Shown here in pieces: positions 5,719-47,470 of a DNA stretch of 64,000 nucleotides (the stretch's first letter is position 1; each line of letters starts with the position of its first letter). The stretch is from Candidatus Poribacteria bacterium. Lineage in GTDB: Bacteria > Poribacteria > WGA-4E > PCPOR2b. The stretch lies in the NCBI GenBank assembly GCA_965218095.1, contig OZ244587.1:6286490-6350489 (forward strand), written 5' to 3'. The position numbers and the translations under genes are program-made. The notes beneath the pieces were generated by a model. The model ran no database searches, was not told the DNA's origin, and saw only the letters and a program-made list of their open reading frames with translations.

Positions 5719-6813
5719 TTAGACACTTTTCATGCACCGCGAAATCGCTTTGGTGATTGTTGCATCGGCCACATCGTCGAGGATAACCACTTCACCGATC
5801 CGTGTCGGCAGGATGAGCTGTAACTTCCCGCCCTTTGCCTTCTTGTCGAGGAACATTGTGTCAATGAGTTCCACAGATTGAATCTCTGGCGGAAAATGCA
5901 CAGGGAGCGGCACACGTTGCAAGAGATTTCTTTGCCGTTCCCAATCCGCTGCATCTAGCATGCCCAAATTGACAGCGAGTTGCGCGGCACAGTTCATGCC
6001 GATTGCAACCGCTTCACCGTGTCGGTAGGTGTTGTAATCCGTCAACGTTTCGAGCGCATGACCGAAGGTATGCCCATAGTTCAGTGTCGCCCGTAGTCCG
6101 CTATCTTTCTCATCACTCGCCACGACACGCGCTTTGTCCGCACACGATTGCGCAACAATATCAATTAGGATCGACGCCTCCAAATCAAGGATTTCCTCAA
6201 GATTTGCCTCTATCTGCTCGAACAACGGGGCATCCATAATTACGCCGTGCTTGATAATTTCGACGAGTCCCGACCGAATTTCAGGCGGCGGCAATGTCTG
6301 CAAAGTCGTTACATCAATGAGAACTAATCTGGGTTGATGAAACGCACCGATAAGGTTTTTGCCCTTCGGGTGATTGATCGCCGTTTTGCCGCCAACGCTG
6401 GCATCGACCTGAGCCTGTAACGTCGTTGGGACCTGAACATACGAGATGCCGCGCATATACGTTGCAGCGACGAAGCCGGCGAGGTCTCCAATGACCCCGC
6501 CGCCCAGTGCGATCAGGGTTGAAGCCCTATCCATGCGATAGTCGATTAGTTGATCATGCAGTTTGGCAAACCACTCGAAGGACTTATGTTCCTCACCAGC
6601 AGGAACTTCAACGATACGTGGATCAAATCCAGCCTTCGATAAGCTGCCCAACACCGTTCCACCGTAGCGTTTGCTCACAAATGTGTCGGCAACAATAATC
6701 ACCCTCGGCGATTTTGCTTTCGGCTTTAATAATCCTCCAAGCTGATTCAGGAGACCTTGATCGACAATGATCGGATAGCTATTTTCGCCAAGTTCAACGT
6801 GAATGGATCGCAT
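5719..6813 (-). CDS. aroB: 3-dehydroquinate synthase
   Basis: GGGVIGDLAGFVAATYMRG, VPTTLQAQVDASVGGKT, LNYGHTFGHA, HGEAV. Confidence 0.98.
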   Translation of the reverse strand: MRSIHVELGENSYPIIVDQGLLNQLGGLLKPKAKSPRVIIVADTFVSKRYGGTVLGSLSKAGFDPRIVEVPAGEEHKSFEWFAKLHDQLIDYRMDRASTLIALGGGVIGDLAGFVAATYMRGISYVQVPTTLQAQVDASVGGKTAINHPKGKNLIGAFHQPRLVLIDVTTLQTLPPPEIRSGLVEIIKHGVIMDAPLFEQIEANLEEILDLEASILIDIVAQSCADKARVVASDEKDSGLRATLNYGHTFGHALETLTDYNTYRHGEAVAIGMNCAAQLAVNLGMLDAADWERQRNLLQRVPLPVHFPPEIQSVELIDTMFLDKKAKGGKLQLILPTRIGEVVILDDVADATITKAISRCMKSV

Positions 6814-42125: not shown

Positions 42126-43406
42126 CTAACTCAATTTCTGCCTGACAATTTGACTGACCACCGAATTGTCCGCTTTGCCTCTCCGTTGTGGAACGAGTTT
42201 TCCCATGACTTTGCCCATATCTCGCACCGATGTCGCTCCTAACACCTCGATCGCCTGTACGACAGCGGCTTCGATTTCTGCCTCTGAAAGTTGGGCGGGG
42301 AGAAATTCTTGCAGTATCTTGATCTGTTCCGCTTCAGCTTCAACGAGGTCATCGCGGTTCGATTTGTGCAACTGTTCTAGGTTCTGTTGACATTTGAGTA
42401 TAAGGTTGTGGCATAATAGAAGAATGATGCCAATAACCTTACCCGATGACCAATGGAATAAGATATACTCGTTTCTTCTAACTTGTCCCAACATCTATGT
42501 TGGCAACGAAGCTGCTACACGCCGCTTTATCGAAGCGGTTCTCTAGGCAACCCGTAGCGGTGCTCAATGGAGACTTCTGCCAGACACCTATGGTAAATCG
42601 AACACCCTCTATAAGCGTTTTGCTCGGTGGTGCGACAAAGGGGGCTTCACACAGATACACCACCACTTTGCCGCCGACCCCGATATTGAGTCGCTTATTG
42701 TGGACAGTACAATCATTCGAGCGCACCCGTCTGCGGCGGGCACCTTAAAAAGCTGGCGCCTTAAAAAAAAGGGTGGCACTGAAAACCAAGCGTTAGGTCG
42801 CTCTCGCGGGGGATTCAGTACAAAAATTCACATCACAGTTGACGGCTAGGTAATCCACTAAGAATACATCTGACACCCGGTCAAAGAAACGACATAGCGG
42901 AAGCAGAAGCGTTGATACTTGGATATAAAAGCGAGTATGTGATTGGAGACAAGGGATATGACTCCGACAATTTTATCGCGGTTATTGAGGCGAATGGAGC
43001 GATTGCGGTGATACCGCCAAAAAGTCATCGTGTGGATCAAAGAGATTACGACAAACATCTGTACAAAGAGAGACATCTGGTTGAATGTTTCATTAACAAG
43101 ATAAAATGGTATCGCCGCATCTTCTCTCGGTTCGAGAAGTTAGCTATCCGTTATTTTGGATTTCTCAGCTTTGTCGCCACTCTTATATGGCTCCGTTGAA
43201 ATGTCAACAGAACCTAGTGCATCCTTCCGTTTCTTGATTTGGCTGGCGATCGCCTCTAACACACCATCATCGTCGAACTCAACCCGATCATTAATCTCCT
43301 TATCCCGGATGTCGCCGCGTACCATGCGAATCACAGACAGGCGATTTTTGTCCTTCGCCTTCATCGCCCGCTTCATCTCGTCATTCAATCGTTCTTTGAG
43401 CCCCAC
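42126..43406 (-). pseudogene. yqeY: GatB/YqeY protein interrupted by IS5 copy 2
   Basis: Removing the IS at CTAG rejoins IKKRKDAL|EQLHKSNRDDL..FLPAQLSEAE..DMGKVMG. Confidence 0.9.
42377..43217 (+). mobile_element. IS5-family element copy 2, inactive transposase
   Basis: Same ends as copy 1; TGG to TAG near 42544 and further lesions. Confidence 0.93.
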
Positions 43407-43542
43407 AGAAATCCCTCATTTCTCTATGTGATTGCCAAAATTTGATAAAATAATACCCCATCTCTCTAGCATCGTCAAGCGGAAAAATGGGGCAATAAAC
43501 CTTGCAATAACGGGATTTGTTTGGCGTAGTGGGCAGAGAGAC

Positions 43543-43571
43543 CCTTGAAAAGGTTTGGAACCTTTTCAAGG
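43543..43571. repeat. REP-like palindrome (family also at 56222..56254 and 63277..63311)
   Basis: ccttgaaaaggtt-tgg-aaccttttcaagg; related hairpins agacttgacaggttt..aaacctatcaggtct and aaaccttgcgaaagtt..aaccttcgcaaggttt. Confidence 0.55.
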
Positions 43572-43574
43572 ATA

Positions 43575-44400
43575 CTAGGTTCTGTTGACATTTGAGTATA
43601 AGGTTGTGGCATAATAGAAGAATGACGCCAATAACCTTACCTGATGAACAATGGAATAAGATATACCGGTTTCTTCTTAGCTGTCTCACCATCTATGTTG
43701 GCAACGAAGCTGCTACACGCTGCTTCGTCGAAGCCGTCCTGTGGGTGACTCGTAGCGGCGCTCAATGGAGACTTCTACCAGACACCTATGGCAAATGGAA
43801 CACCCGCTACAAGCGGTTTGCTCGATGGTGCGACAAAGGTATCTTCACACAGATGCACCACCACTTCGCCTCTGACCCCGATATCGAGTCGCTTATTGTG
43901 GACAGTACCATCTGCCGCGCTCACCCGTCTGCGGCGGGCGCCTTAAAAAAAACGGTGGCACTGAAAACCAAGCATTAGGTCGCTCTCGGGGCGGTTTCAG
44001 CACAAAAATTCACATCACAGTTGACGGACTAGGCAATCCCCTAAGAATTCATCTGACACCCGGTCAGAGACATGACATAACTGAGGCGGAAGGGTTGATA
44101 ATCGGATATAACAGTGAATATGTGATTGGAGACAAGGGGTACGATTCGGACGCTTTTATCGCGGTTATTGAGGCGAATGGAGCGATTGCAGTGATACCGC
44201 CAAAAAGTCATCGTGTTGACCAAAGAACGTATGACAAACACTTATACAAAGAGAGACATCGGGTTGAATGTTTCATCAACAAGATAAAATGGTATCGTCG
44301 TATCTTCTCTCGGTTTGAGAAGCTAGCTGTCCGTTATTTTGGATTTCTCAGCTTTGTCTCCACTCTTATATGGCTCCCTTGAAATGTCAACAGAACCTAG
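43575..44400 (+). mobile_element. IS5-family element copy 3, orfA/orfB with probable -1 frameshift
   Basis: Same ends, 826 bp; A8 run at about 43945 between ORFs 43622..43978 and ..44382. Confidence 0.93.
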
Positions 44401-44807
44401 CACAAGTCGTTAATTATTAAAAAGTAATGACTGTAGAGATTAGGTTCTGTTGACATTTCATCGTAACCAGATAATCACAGCAACGAAACTCAGAAACCCC
44501 AAATAGCGACCCGCCAACTTATCAAAACAACTGAAGATACGCCTATAGTGCTTGATTTTGTTGATGAAGCATTCCACCCGATGTCTCTCTCGGTACAGAT
44601 GCGTATCATAGTCTCGTGACTCACGGCGGTTGATACGGGGACGAATCACTGGCTCTGCACCCATACGGGTTATCAACTGCACCAATGAATCCGCGTCATA
44701 CGCTGAGTCGGCTATCACATACTCACTGCTATACCCTTCTGCACAAGTCATGGCGTGGCGTTGTCTAGCCGTCAGCGCAAAACGTAACGCATTTATAAAT
44801 AATTGGC

Positions 44808-44836
44808 TTGCAGATTCTTTGAATATGTGATATTAT
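44808..44836 (+). promoter_or_regulatory. Sigma70-like promoter in the left IR, facing the cargo
   Basis: TTGCAG-17 nt-TATTAT with extended -10 TG. Confidence 0.6.
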
Positions 44837-44920
44837 TGGGGTGTTACAAGCCTGTGATTCTGAAGTTTATTAAATCGTTGGCTTGTTTTACCTTTCCTCG
44901 CCAAAGTAAAGGACACCCCA

Positions 44921-45361
44921 ATGAGTGATTTTCTTAGTGTAGTAGCGGATATACTCATTATCATTGCTGCTGGAAAGTTCATTTGGAAACACATTCCCAG
45001 TAGTGACGATTTGTATAGTATCAGAAAGTCCTTCATAGACTTCAGAGATGAAGCAAAACAACTGAAAGAAGAAGTCGTCAATTTAAGAAGGGTAGAGCTT
45101 ACCAACATCGCAGAGAATCTGAAAACTAGAGATGCAACTGCGAAGAAAACCGTACCTGTTGAAGATATTGACAAGAAACTTGATTCTTTTCAACAGTCAG
45201 TAACGAGAATGGACAGGTACATGACAACTACCCTTGCAACTCATGTAGCAGTCATCAAGTCAATAGATAGTATAGAGGGGCGTTATGCCCAAATGGAGGA
45301 ACGATTTGGGCAAACCGAAACAACCCTCCGAAATGTTGCTAGAAGATTGCACATGAGATAG
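44921..45361 (+). CDS. IS1595 passenger: N-terminal TM plus coiled-coil protein (146 aa)
   Basis: AAGGA SD; hydrophobic residues about 4-22; heptad-rich remainder. Confidence 0.7.
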   Translation: MSDFLSVVADILIIIAAGKFIWKHIPSSDDLYSIRKSFIDFRDEAKQLKEEVVNLRRVELTNIAENLKTRDATAKKTVPVEDIDKKLDSFQQSVTRMDRYMTTTLATHVAVIKSIDSIEGRYAQMEERFGQTETTLRNVARRLHMR

Positions 45362-45426
45362 ACATAAAACAGGCGAGGGGGTGTTATAGCACCCCCACCG
45401 CCACAACATGGCAAAGGAGACCCCCC

Positions 45427-45606
45427 ATGCCACGCATCAAATACATCAAGTCTTACAGGCGTAAAGACGGCACGCTTGTAAGTCCACATATACGGACAAC
45501 TGCTGATAACACCCTCTGCATCACGACTTATTCCAATGAAAGGAGGGATTATCGTGTTTATAAAAATACGCAAAACCTTTACGTTTATCGTACTCAAAAT
45601 CGCTAA
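45427..45606 (+). CDS. IS1595 passenger: 59-aa basic protein with YxRKDGTxVxxHxR motif
   Basis: AAGGAGA SD; MPRIKYIKSYRRKDGTLVSPHIRTTADN..; below the ORF-track length cutoff. Confidence 0.6.
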   Translation: MPRIKYIKSYRRKDGTLVSPHIRTTADNTLCITTYSNERRDYRVYKNTQNLYVYRTQNR

Positions 45607-45664
45607 ACGTAAGGGTAATCAAACGCCGTATAGCAGTCCTTATACGGCTACGCCTAAGCAATAA
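45554..45664 (+). CDS. Possible 36-aa cationic peptide overlapping the 59-aa ORF
   Basis: Perfect AAGGAGG at 45540-46, GTG 7 nt later: MFIKIRKTFTFIVLKIAKRKGNQTPYSSPYTATPKQ. Confidence 0.35.
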   Translation: MFIKIRKTFTFIVLKIAKRKGNQTPYSSPYTATPKQ

Positions 45665-45780
45665 CTCTTAGGCAATATCAGGGGGTGCTACACAAAGCAC
45701 TCCCTGATATTTTGTTGCTAGAGTGTCCGGCTCCCACCGGACACTCCCTTATGGGAAAACCTCTGAAAATATGACTCAGA
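45625..45780. ncRNA. Candidate structured RNA: consecutive hairpins in the IS1595 cargo
   Basis: Stems at 45625-48 (8 bp), 45652-73 (7 bp), 45674-711 (16 bp), 45721-46 (10 bp), 45762-80 (5 bp). Confidence 0.5.
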
Positions 45781-45795
45781 AAGGAGGCAGATGTT

Positions 45796-45990
45796 ATGTC
45801 ATCACAAAGGAAGGTGGATATTCAACGTGTTAAAGAACATCTACAAAAACATGCTGATAAAACCCACCGAATTGAAGAGAGGTTATTTACCTCTACTGCA
45901 ACCGTAGAAGATTTAAGAGTTGCAATTCAGTTACTTAAAAATGACTACACACTAATTACAACCATTTTCAAAAGGTTGGAAATAGTGTAA
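45796..45990 (+). CDS. IS1595 passenger: 64-aa helical protein
   Basis: AAGGAGG SD; bracketed by a 14-bp inverted repeat (45752-65 / 46013-26). Confidence 0.6.
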   Translation: MSSQRKVDIQRVKEHLQKHADKTHRIEERLFTSTATVEDLRVAIQLLKNDYTLITTIFKRLEIV

Positions 45991-46028
45991 TCTAATCCTT
46001 CTATGGAGTCTCCAGAGGTTTTCCCACC

Positions 46029-46910
46029 CTACACAAAGCATTCCCTGATAAACTTCTTGAAGATGTTCCGGTTCTTCCGGTTGTTGTACTTGTAACACGC
46101 CTCAGCGATGTAGAGCGAAACATGCTTGTAGTGGTGATGTGTACCATGAAACGCACGTTTCACCAGCGACCAGAACCCTTCAATCGTGTTTGTGTGGGTA
46201 TTACCGTCCACGTACTGCCAGTTCTTGTGTCTGATGACATGGTGAGGCATGAGCCCATCAACCGCCTCATACGATGAGAACTCATCTGTCATTAGAACTG
46301 AATCCTTCGGCTTCTCAATAACGCCTTTGATGAACCCCAAAACGCCCTTACGACTCAAACTCGTAGCCACACGCGCCACAACATTCCCAGCCCGTTCAAC
46401 AGCACCGATAACGGGCGTTTTCTTCGTGCCTCTACCTCGCTTGCTCGGTGGAGGCAAGTTCCCGTCCTTGTCTTTTCGTCGTCGGGGCTTACCGCCCACG
46501 TAGGTTTCATCGCATTCAATAATTCCTCTCAGTAAAACCTTGCCCTTTCTACCCATCTCAGACCTGATTCGTTTCATCATGAACCAAGCTGAGGGTTGCG
46601 TTAAGTCCAAATGACGAGCCATTTGACAACTTGATAGGCTTTTCTTCGCATCGTTCATTAACAGGATAGCCATAAACCACTTCTGAAGTGGAATCTGTGT
46701 TCCTTGAAATATCGTTCCCTGTAACACATTGAAACTTGACTTACAAGTATGGCAATTCCAACGACCAATTATGCTAGCTTCATTCTTCGGTGCAACCTTT
46801 TTACTTTCGCAATATGGACACTCAGGTTTGCCACCCCAGCGGATAGTTTCTAAGTGTTTAATACAACTCTCTTGGTCAGAAAATCGTTCTACAGCATCAA
46901 ACAAGTTCAT
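46029..46910 (-). CDS. IS1595-family transposase
   Basis: RWG..CPYC..C..C zinc ribbon, IECDETYVGG, MTDE, HTNTIEGFWS, YIAE..YKYN. Confidence 0.95.
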   Translation of the reverse strand: MNLFDAVERFSDQESCIKHLETIRWGGKPECPYCESKKVAPKNEASIIGRWNCHTCKSSFNVLQGTIFQGTQIPLQKWFMAILLMNDAKKSLSSCQMARHLDLTQPSAWFMMKRIRSEMGRKGKVLLRGIIECDETYVGGKPRRRKDKDGNLPPPSKRGRGTKKTPVIGAVERAGNVVARVATSLSRKGVLGFIKGVIEKPKDSVLMTDEFSSYEAVDGLMPHHVIRHKNWQYVDGNTHTNTIEGFWSLVKRAFHGTHHHYKHVSLYIAEACYKYNNRKNRNIFKKFIRECFV

Positions 46911-46949
46911 TCATCTCAACTCCTTTATTCATAAGGGTTTGATGCCTAT

Positions 46950-46978
46950 ATTGTATCAAATTTACACAAAACTTGCAA
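46950..46978 (-). promoter_or_regulatory. Sigma70-like promoter in the right IR, facing the transposase
   Basis: TTGCAA-17 nt-TACAAT with extended -10 TG. Confidence 0.6.
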
Positions 46979-47470
46979 GCCTAAACCTTATAAGCGCGAA
47001 ACGTAATGGATTGCCTAAGCCATCAACCGTGATGTGAATTTTGGTTGAAAATCCACCCACACTACGTCCGAGTGCCTGTGAGGCTTGACCGCCACTTGTT
47101 TTCAAACCCCCTGCAGCACAGGGGTGAGCGCGGCAGATGGTACTGTCACCATATCTAGGTCGTTGACAAAGTGTTGATGCAGCCGTTGGAAGATGCCTTT
47201 ATCGCACCAGCAAGCGAATTGTTTATAGACGCTGTTCCAACTGCCGTACTCTTTTGGTAGGAGTCGCCATTGACTACCACTACGAGTTATCCAAAGCACT
47301 GCTTGGACAAAACGTTTTAAGTTCGCTTGCTGTCCGGTGTAGACATCGGAACAGGTTTGCAGGAATGCTGCTATTTTTGACCATTGATTATCGGATAAGG
47401 TAAGTGTTGACATATCGTTATTATGCCATGAATGTCAACACGTCCTAGCTAAATATTTTTCCGCGATGTA

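What the first reader, a model, noticed from the sequence alone, without database searches (positions are those of the whole stretch)
45674..46050. Cargo hairpin contains a 22-nt copy of the transposase 3' end, with nested long-range pairing
Seen: ctacacaaagcactccctgata (45688-45709) matches ctacacaaagcattccctgata (46029-46050) at 21/22, and the second copy begins exactly at the transposase stop codon. Inside this, tgggaaaacctctg (45752-65) is the perfect inverse of 46013-26, enclosing the SD and 64-aa ORF. The arm at 45676-89 can therefore pair locally or with the transposase tail. Inference: a two-state RNA switch or a built-in antisense segment against the transposase mRNA, reminiscent of fold-back control in type I toxin mRNAs.
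Basis: partly seen in the sequence, partly recalled or inferred. Interest (0 to 1): 0.8.

Follow-up and report, generated by a model that had tools for sequence, protein, structure and literature searches.

The report
Duplicated transposase tail keeps a terminator hairpin
Inside an active, cargo-carrying insertion sequence of a sponge-symbiont genome, the 22-base copy of the transposase's end is most likely a leftover duplication that preserved an old hairpin when an extra small gene was inserted, not an RNA switch.

Summary
The 21/22 direct repeat (45688-45709 and 46029-46050), the 16-bp hairpin (45674-45711) and the perfect 14-nt inverted repeat (45752-65 and 46013-26) are all present and exceed chance.

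They lie in a 2211-bp IS1595-family element (44788-46998). It has 9 near-identical copies with 8-bp target duplications and three small cargo ORFs opposite the transposase.

In relatives with nothing inserted after the transposase stop codon, the real transposase tail forms this hairpin with the bases just after the stop. Compensatory changes support the stem.

At least three further elements, with different inserts, carry a 29-42-nt tail copy next to the distal arm. Every copy ends exactly at the stop codon.

My reading is that the 22-mer is a duplicated tail that kept the ancestral stem-loop intact when the 64-aa ORF module arrived. In the window that stem-loop now looks like a + strand intrinsic terminator.

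A switch or antisense role is not supported. Folds keep the local hairpin, and in one relative the real tail has drifted without compensation.

The recurrent tail duplication at cargo gain is the more interesting part, and its mechanism is unresolved.

The parts
44788..46998 (.). Complete IS1595-family element (2211 bp) with cargo, inserted in an IS5-family element
   Evidence: 9 full-length copies in the own genome, all 2211 bp. 7 are identical and 2 share one difference at 46368. Imperfect terminal inverted repeats were read by eye.
44780..44787 (.). 8-bp target-site duplication, left copy (right copy at 46999-47006)
   Evidence: 8 of 9 copies have perfect 8-bp flanking repeats and 1 of 9 has 7/8; a joint 44779->46999 (the empty site) is seen in 4 of 4 runs laid.
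44921..45361 (+). Cargo ORF A1, 146 aa. An N-terminal hydrophobic stretch and coiled-coil look are my reading of the translation.
   Evidence: There are only sub-threshold Pfam coiled-coil-type hits. The leader from the left end to its ATG is 87% identical in L025, but the ORF itself is not conserved there.
45427..45606 (+). Cargo ORF A2, 59 aa, basic
   Evidence: Residues 1-28 are 57% identical to a translated stretch beside the transposase in L117/L137.
45652..45673 (+). Small hairpin hpX just upstream of the main hairpin
   Evidence: Predicted in both strand folds. A hairpin with a different stem sequence sits at the same position in L025, and a similar one in L021 and L022.
45674..45711 (+). 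Main hairpin: 16-bp stem, 6-nt loop. Terminator-like on the + strand.
   Evidence: Free energy is -26.2 kcal/mol on + and -23.2 on - (46-nt windows), with z-scores of -7.4 and -6.9.
45688..45709 (+). 22-nt copy of the transposase 3' end (loop plus 3' arm of the hairpin)
   Evidence: 21 of 22 identical to 46029-46050.
45710..45719 (+). T-rich tract following the hairpin
   Evidence: listed as the tail of the terminator-like site.
45721..45746 (+). Second hairpin hp3 (10-bp stem) ahead of the 64-aa ORF
   Evidence: Predicted in the folds of both strands. It weakly resembles the hairpin ahead of the second cargo ORF in L021 and L022 (by eye; blastn did not report it).
45752..45765 (+). 5' arm of the perfect 14-nt inverted repeat
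   Evidence: I5. It pairs with 46013-46026 in the folds of both strands.
45796..45990 (+). Cargo ORF B, 64 aa, hydrophilic, near-orphan
   Evidence: It was found only in the 9 IS copies: 0 of 175 other genomes of the phylum matched. There is one 89%-identical 64-aa protein among 5.8 billion clusters.
46013..46026 (+). 3' arm of the 14-nt inverted repeat, 2 nt from the transposase stop codon
   Evidence: The 14-mer occurs 18 times in the genome, twice in each of the 9 IS copies and nowhere else.
46029..46050 (-). Real transposase tail (last 6 codons, the last two bases of the codon before them, and the stop codon)
46029..46910 (-). IS1595-family transposase, 293 aa
   Evidence: Pfam PF12762 and PF12760, both above their cut-offs.
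46950..46978 (-). Sigma-70-like promoter match upstream of the transposase
   Evidence: It is a consensus match only: 1 site found against a mean of 4.0 in shuffles, so it is not evidence by itself.

Best explanation
The 22-mer is a duplicated piece of the transposase gene's 3' end. In the ancestor of this IS1595 clade, a stem-loop straddled the transposase stop codon. Its proximal arm was the last codons of the transposase, the stop codon lay in the loop, and the distal arm followed at once.

In the window's element, a 319-bp module (45710-46028: T-tract, hp3, and the 64-aa ORF bracketed by the 14-nt repeat) came to lie between the stop codon and the distal arm. The last 22 nt of the gene were duplicated with it. 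The transposase therefore kept its C-terminus, and the distal arm kept a partner right beside it.

The hairpin acts on the cargo-sense (+) strand RNA. Most likely it is the terminator or 3'-end stabiliser of the convergent cargo transcripts, shielding the transposase gene from antisense read-through. The leftover complementarity between the arm and the real tail is a historical by-product.

Shown: the anatomy, the ancestral arrangement in relatives, the compensatory changes, and the recurrence of tail copies. Inferred: the terminator function, the order of events, and how the duplication arose. Candidate origins are an illegitimate join between two related elements followed by trimming of the left-hand transposase down to the hairpin, or template switching or repair at the palindrome.
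For: (1) Ancestral arrangement. The real tail pairs with the bases directly after the stop in L025 (79% transposase identity), L143/L123 (69%) and L142/L119 (60%). These were 3 of 19 distinct relatives at or above 55% identity under a strict criterion. L136 and L137 (66%) show it more weakly.

(2) Alignment of 9 hairpins (4 on tail copies, 5 on real tails). 89.7% of cells are paired and 4 of 13 pairs change on both sides. Shuffles reached these values 3/500 and 5/500 times. Slid controls gave 40-59% paired.

(3) One stem pair is G.U in 8 of 9 sequences and another in 3 of 9. These would be A.C mismatches on the transposase strand. For the tail-copy hairpins, the cargo-sense strand is more stable in 3 of 3 elements, and in the window it is -26.2 against -23.2 kcal/mol.

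(4) Recurrence. Tail copies next to the arm are:
- window: 22 nt, insert 341 nt measured stop to stop;
- L021: 29 nt, 27/29 identical, insert 1765 nt;
- L135: 42 nt, 38/42 identical, insert 407 nt;
- L027: 29 nt, 27/29 identical, insert 577 nt, but with a different kind of stem.
In 4 of 4 the copy ends exactly at the stop codon, and the inserts are unrelated. On a transposase DNA tree these fall in three separate clades, interspersed with uninterrupted forms.

(5) The window's hairpin, with the T-tract that follows the 22-mer, is the strongest of 4 terminator-like sites in the element (16 pairs).

(6) Contigs from sponge runs end with an arm-like sequence directly abutting the real tail (loose ends at 46029 in X5 and 46033 in X7). 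So insert-free relatives exist in nature.
Against: There is no direct evidence of termination or of transcript ends. The RNA-library runs are held only as contigs, and one contig runs straight across the hairpin.

In the uninterrupted relatives the hairpin is followed by coding sequence, not a T-tract. The canonical terminator look is therefore particular to the window's element.

In L136 and L137 the 75-nt window folds better on the transposase strand (-27.5 and -29.1 against -20.6 and -17.6 kcal/mol). That window also holds a second GC-rich hairpin.

Four clade members (L138, L140, L144, L026) have neither a hairpin at the stop nor a tail copy within about 5 kb. The structure is therefore dispensable.

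A simple insertion does not by itself create a 22-42-nt duplication, and I could not identify the mechanism. No relic of a second element's end lies beside the tail copy.

The nine window-type copies are identical and give no variation of their own.
Confidence: 0.6

Rival explanations
1. The stop-codon palindrome is a preferred docking site for cargo. New modules are captured again and again exactly between the stop codon and the distal arm by a hairpin-dependent process. That process could be template switching at a stalled fork, repair after hairpin cleavage, or an unknown recombinase, and it duplicates the tail as its signature.
For: There are at least three phylogenetically separate events with unrelated inserts. 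In 4 of 4 the duplication ends exactly at the stop codon, and all duplications are short (22-42 nt of an 882-nt gene). L021 shows a second insertion-with-duplication pattern: an 83-aa ORF present twice, flanking a 293-aa gene. The left leader is conserved up to the cargo start codon while the cargo differs, which gives the element a slot-like architecture.
Against: No shared motif appears at the inner junctions of the four inserts (read by eye). The duplication lengths differ. L022 shows that a tail copy can be shortened by later deletion, so the short lengths can result from trimming plus selection for the hairpin. Four clade members have sequence after the stop without any tail copy. No recombinase gene lies in the element.
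Confidence: 0.2
2. The 22-mer is a functional antisense segment against the 3' end of the transposase mRNA, or arm 45676-89 toggles between the local partner and the real tail as a two-state RNA switch.
For: The + strand RNA ending at the hairpin carries 21 of 22 bases complementary to the transposase mRNA tail. The arm-to-real-tail duplex is still -22.3 kcal/mol. In the window and L021, the two variable loop positions match each element's own real tail. The 14-bp long-range stem forms in the folds of both strands.
Against: The local hairpin is favoured in every fold and would form first during transcription. In L135 the copy and the real tail differ at 4 of 42 positions, including 2 in the loop, without compensation. 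In L027 they differ at 2 of 29. The uninterrupted relatives explain the complementarity without any trans function. The target is the 3' end, not a ribosome-binding site.
Confidence: 0.1
3. The 22-mer is a neutral scar. The tail copy and hairpin are leftovers of a rearrangement with no present function, and the nine identical copies merely reflect recent transposition.
For: The nine copies differ at one position only, so selection within this genome cannot be read. Some clade members lack the hairpin altogether.
Against: The stem is kept with changes on both sides across lineages of 60-100% transposase identity. In L135 the non-coding copy kept its pairing while the coding tail drifted. That is the opposite of what a neutral scar would show.
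Confidence: 0.1

Closest known systems
IS1595-family insertion sequences with passenger genes ('transporter IS'). The source is Siguier, Gagnevin and Chandler 2009, which I saw only as reference 6 and one describing sentence in PMC3129680 (passages read).
   Same: A DDE transposase with the IS1595-type catalytic domain and an N-terminal zinc ribbon. There are 8-bp target duplications and terminal inverted repeats, plus extra genes unrelated to transposition inside the ends.
   Different: The stop-codon-straddling stem-loop and its duplication at cargo gain are not mentioned in anything I could search. 0 papers held both 'IS1595 family' and 'stem-loop'. The 2009 paper itself was not available to me.
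Rho-independent (intrinsic) terminators between convergent genes
   Same: A GC-containing 16-bp stem, a 6-nt loop and a T-rich tail on the + strand, sitting between convergent cargo and transposase genes.
   Different: The ancestral form has its 3' arm inside the transposase coding sequence and lacks a T-tract. Activity is untested.
Fold-back (5'-3' pairing) control of type I toxin mRNAs such as hok
   Same: A predicted 14-bp pairing joins the leader and the trailer of a small ORF.
   Different: The 64-aa product is hydrophilic, not a small membrane toxin (read by eye). No antisense RNA gene is known here. There are no relatives with which to test covariation.
IS10 RNA-OUT / RNA-IN antisense control of transposase (recalled)
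   Same: A hairpin RNA from the element whose loop and one arm are complementary to the transposase mRNA.
   Different: Here the complementarity is to the last 22 nt of the coding sequence, not to the translation start. It is explained by descent from an overlapping hairpin.

Membership tests
IS1595 family | Transposase with the ISXO2-like DDE domain | tested here: met
   PF12762, E 1.6e-34, 119.6 bits against a cut-off of 27.
IS1595 family | N-terminal zinc-ribbon domain | tested here: met
   PF12760, E 3.6e-08, 33.7 bits against a cut-off of 25.4.
IS1595 family | 8-bp target-site duplication and terminal inverted repeats (family features recalled from ISfinder) | tested here: met
   8 of 9 copies have perfect 8-bp flanking repeats and 1 of 9 has 7/8. 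Imperfect terminal repeats were read by eye.
Intrinsic terminator | Stable stem-loop followed by a T-tract on the transcribed strand | tested here: met
   + strand, 16 pairs, 7 of them G-C, loop of 6, T-rich tail.: -26.2 kcal/mol, z-score -7.4.
Intrinsic terminator | Transcripts end there in the cell | not testable with these tools
   The RNA runs were available as contigs only, which cannot show ends.
Two-state RNA switch | Two mutually exclusive pairings of similar stability, both conserved | tested here: not met
   The local pairing is favoured by 2.7-7.7 kcal/mol in 3 of 3 elements. The alternative is absent from the minimum-energy and centroid folds. It is not conserved in L135.
cis-encoded antisense control of transposase (IS10 type) | Antisense RNA covering the translation start of the transposase mRNA | tested here: not met
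   The complementarity is confined to the last 22 nt including the stop codon.
Type I toxin-antitoxin | Small hydrophobic membrane peptide as the toxin | tested here: not met
   The 64-aa product has no hydrophobic stretch (read by eye) and no Pfam family (best hit E 0.018, below cut-off).
MITE-like insertion bounded by the 14-nt repeats | Further copies in the genome and a target duplication at its ends | tested here: not met
   The 14-mer occurs only inside the 9 IS copies (18 of 18 matches). The flanking bases are not a direct repeat.
Site-specific cassette site (integron attC-like) | A conserved core at both junctions of each insert, and a cognate recombinase | tested here: not met
   The inner junctions of the 4 inserts share no motif and the duplication lengths differ. 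No recombinase ORF lies in the element. The rest of the genome was not searched for one.

The most novel reading that the evidence does not exclude
The palindrome that overlaps the transposase stop codon is a built-in cargo slot. In this clade of IS1595 elements from sponge symbionts, new gene modules are captured repeatedly at that exact point by a hairpin-dependent mechanism that duplicates the transposase tail. A plain insertion sequence thereby becomes a modular gene carrier, and the tail copy may also retain some antisense effect on the transposase.
Probability: 0.15. Interest if true: 0.7.

Novelty: new variant of a known kind. Interest (0 to 1): 0.4.

Why it matters
How insertion sequences pick up passenger genes is poorly understood. 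Here the same footprint recurs in at least three lineages with unrelated inserts: a short copy of the transposase's last codons left beside a conserved hairpin arm. This points either to a hotspot or mechanism for cargo gain, or to strong selection to keep a terminator between convergent cargo and transposase genes.

It also gives annotators a practical marker for recognising cargo boundaries in these elements.

For the claim as first made (an RNA switch), the result is mostly deflationary.

Tried and rejected
Tandem duplication of the A2 unit as the origin of the 64-aa module. The 36-nt, 72% repeat with a 351-nt spacing led me to compare the two ORFs and the two segments. Blastp gave only 8/23 identities (E 0.005 in a one-sequence search). 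Blastn found nothing beyond the 22-mer. Rejected as unsupported.

A third partial copy of the tail at 45742-45752 (10/11). Repeats of this size are common in shuffles, so I treat it as chance.

MITE reading of the 14-nt repeat. Rejected.

Nested-insertion model, in which a second element landed in the first one's transposase tail. It predicts a relic of an inner element end beside the tail copy. None is seen in the window or in L021. It is not excluded if that end was later deleted.

Rfam found only one sub-threshold hit, away from the hairpin (ftsZ-DE, 20.7 bits against a gathering score of 72.2).

The metagenome scan with the transposase returned only relatives at or below 52% identity. These were of no use for the junction.

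The phylum-wide search added no relative closer than the one at 79%. Relatives at 57-59% have different C-termini and no hairpin. A first attempt failed because my length filter was too strict.

Sequencing runs. Four RNA-library runs hold 0.69-0.79 of the sampled words, but all are contigs, so neither transcription nor transcript ends are shown. One low-depth X5 contig (depth 5.84) joins 45708 to 46024, skipping 315 nt, with 'between: not known'. I could not interpret it safely. A variant that replaces 45508-45676 with 110 other letters was seen in X6 and X7, but its letters were not given.

The supplements of papers were not consulted, and no claim here depends on them. The key 2009 paper on the IS1595 family was not in the library, so features described there may overlap with what I report.

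Full report
**What is there.** The stretch lies inside a mobile element. The minus-strand ORF 46029-46910 (293 aa) carries the IS1595-type DDE domain and the matching N-terminal zinc ribbon, both above Pfam's cut-offs. A DNA search of the window's own genome (6.35 Mb, one contig) found 9 full-length copies. All 9 are 2211 bp. 7 are identical and 2 share a single difference at 46368. 8 of 9 are flanked by perfect 8-bp direct repeats and 1 by a 7/8 repeat.

The element therefore spans 44788-46998, and it has split an IS5-family element whose halves lie at 44458-44751 and 47102-47413. The unsplit target is present in contigs of 4 of 4 sponge-derived runs that I laid (joint 44779->46999).

Opposite the transposase, on the + strand, lie three small ORFs: A1 (146 aa), A2 (59 aa) and B (64 aa). 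Each is preceded by a hairpin and a Shine-Dalgarno-like site.

**The observation.** In 300 shuffles of the element, none reached a 14-nt perfect inverted repeat or a 22-nt direct repeat with one mismatch. The second 22-mer does begin at the stop codon.

**What the relatives show.** The transposase has relatives mainly in metagenome-assembled genomes labelled Poribacteria, Latescibacterota and Chloroflexota (80 loci kept of 102). Relatives also occur in genomes of the window's family and phylum.

- *Real tail forms the hairpin.* In the closest relative outside the genome (L025, 79% protein identity), the element is about 1.69 kb. Its left leader is 87% identical to the window's up to the cargo start codon, its cargo ORFs are unrelated, and nothing is inserted after the transposase stop. 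There the real transposase tail pairs with the bases directly after the stop codon.
- *Other lineages.* The same holds in L143/L123 (69%) and L142/L119 (60%), with different stem sequences, and more weakly in L136 and L137 (66%).
- *Covariation test.* In an alignment of these five real-tail hairpins plus four tail-copy hairpins, 89.7% of cells pair and 4 of 13 pairs change on both sides. Shuffles reached these values in 3/500 and 5/500 trials, and sliding the partner gave 40-59% pairing. Nine related sequences are a small sample, and the tool warns that relatedness alone can beat shuffles, so this is supportive but not conclusive.
- *Strand asymmetry.* One stem pair is G.U in 8 of 9 sequences. 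It is a wobble pair on the cargo-sense strand and an A.C mismatch on the transposase strand. The window's hairpin is accordingly stronger on + (-26.2) than on - (-23.2 kcal/mol).

**Tail copies recur.** Besides the window (22 nt, 21/22 identical), I found tail copies lying next to the distal arm in three other transposase-bearing elements:

- L021, a 78%-related broken element in the same genome: 29 nt, 27/29 identical, patchy to about 37 nt.
- L135: 42 nt, 38/42 identical.
- L027: 29 nt, 27/29 identical. Here the copy sits in the loop of a different 10-bp stem.

A transposase-less remnant, L022, has one too.

The DNA between the real stop and the copy's stop measures 341, 1765, 407 and 577 nt and is unrelated among the four. 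In 4 of 4 the copy ends exactly at the stop codon. On a maximum-likelihood tree of the transposase DNA (14 rows; L139 and L141 dropped because my filter found no C-terminal match), the window and L021 are sisters (support 81/99). L135 and L027 sit in other clades, next to elements with real-tail hairpins or with none.

That gives at least three independent events. It may be four, because the window's two copies share one Val codon and stop codon while L021's two copies share another pair.

The pattern is not universal. L138, L140, L144 and L026 have neither a hairpin at the stop nor a tail copy within about 5 kb. Relatives at 57-59% identity have other C-termini.

**How it most likely works.** The simplest reading is that the stem-loop over the stop codon is the old feature, and the 22-mer is what kept it whole when module B arrived.

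In the window the copy is followed by a T-tract that the real tail, being coding sequence, cannot have. The scan lists the site as a + strand terminator with 16 pairs. I infer that it ends or stabilises the cargo transcripts and limits antisense transcription into the transposase gene. That function is not shown.

Folds of 411 nt on either strand keep three elements: the local hairpin, hp3 and the 14-bp long-range stem around ORF B. The arm never pairs with the real tail. Duplex energies favour the local partner on the cargo-sense strand in the window, L021 and L135: -26.5 against -22.6, -21.1 against -18.4, and -24.0 against -16.3 kcal/mol.

In L135 the real tail has taken four synonymous changes that weaken pairing with the arm, while the non-coding copy kept it. 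Selection therefore appears to act on the local hairpin, not on a long-range contact. That is why I rate the switch or antisense idea low. I note that the window and L021 agree with it at two loop positions.

**What remains open.** I cannot say how a 22-42-nt duplication arises with each insert.

- *Fusion and trimming.* A join between two related elements, followed by trimming of the left transposase down to the part needed for the hairpin, is plausible. L022 shows such trimming relative to L021. ORF B has the orientation and the hairpin-plus-ribosome-site layout of the other cargo units.
- *Capture at the palindrome.* A hairpin-provoked template switch or repair event is equally possible, and would make the palindrome a true capture site.
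- *No conserved junction.* No conserved junction motif supports a site-specific recombinase.

The 14-nt repeat is real. It occurs only in the IS copies, and ORF B has just one known homologue (89% identity) and none in 175 other genomes of the phylum. Its role therefore cannot be tested by comparison. Pairing of the mRNA's two ends is the best guess.

**Comparison with what is known.** The element is a member of the IS1595 family of the passenger-carrying kind. PMC3129680 (passages read) describes that kind with reference to Siguier et al. 2009, which I could not read. The hairpin works like an intrinsic terminator between convergent genes.

It fails the tests for several other systems. It is not an IS10-type antisense system, because the complementarity lies at the wrong end of the mRNA. 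It is not a type I toxin module, because the ORF B product is not a membrane peptide. It is not a MITE or an attC-like site (see the membership table).

I found no paper holding both 'IS1595 family' and 'stem-loop'. The listings showed nothing on this feature. These were four text searches of an incomplete library, not proof that the feature is unpublished.

**Verdict.** The feature is best seen as a conserved terminator-like stem-loop rescued by a tail duplication. The recurrent duplication at cargo gain is a modestly novel lead for people who study how insertion sequences acquire genes.

Noticed in passing
window 44788-44920, compared with L025 1551-1693: The left end and leader of the element, up to the first cargo start codon, are 87% identical between the window and L025. 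The cargo ORFs behind the leader are unrelated. L021 and L022 also share parts of this leader. Cargo seems to be exchanged between a conserved leader and the conserved hairpins.
   Followed up: partly
L021 1756-3496 (own genome, G000 5094800-5099600): This is a 78%-related element whose transposase frame is interrupted. Its 1.7-kb cargo lies on the transposase strand: a small ORF (74 aa as listed) whose likely ATG overlaps the transposase stop codon, an 83-aa ORF present twice flanking a 293-aa ORF with internal repeats, and then the tail copy.
   Followed up: partly
window 45427-45664: The 59-aa ORF A2 ends at 45606. A second frame (45536-45664) ends in the same three residues and stop, inside the small hairpin, as the A2 ORFs of L021 and L022. 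RNA-library contigs carry a variant in which 45508-45676 is replaced by 110 other letters. This part of the cargo looks mosaic or frameshifted.
   Followed up: no
window 42858-44751 and 47102-47413: A cluster of IS5-family transposase pieces surrounds the element. Near-identical 95-aa C-terminal ORFs lie at 42912-43199 and 44095-44382, with N-terminal DUF4096-type pieces at 43592-43978 and 47102-47413 (Pfam tested only for the latter). The region is an IS pile-up.
   Followed up: no
L027 about 5894-6500 (transposase orientation): In this 61%-related element the 29-nt tail copy sits in the loop of a perfect 10-bp stem made by the bases on either side of it. It does not itself form the stem. This is a different solution at the same place.
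   Followed up: no
L135 (G027), first 130 nt after the transposase stop: The insert starts with a Shine-Dalgarno-like site and a 37-aa ORF, coiled-coil-like by eye, directly after the stop codon. It also holds an opposite-strand ORF listed as 114 aa (about 70 aa from its likely ATG).
   Followed up: no
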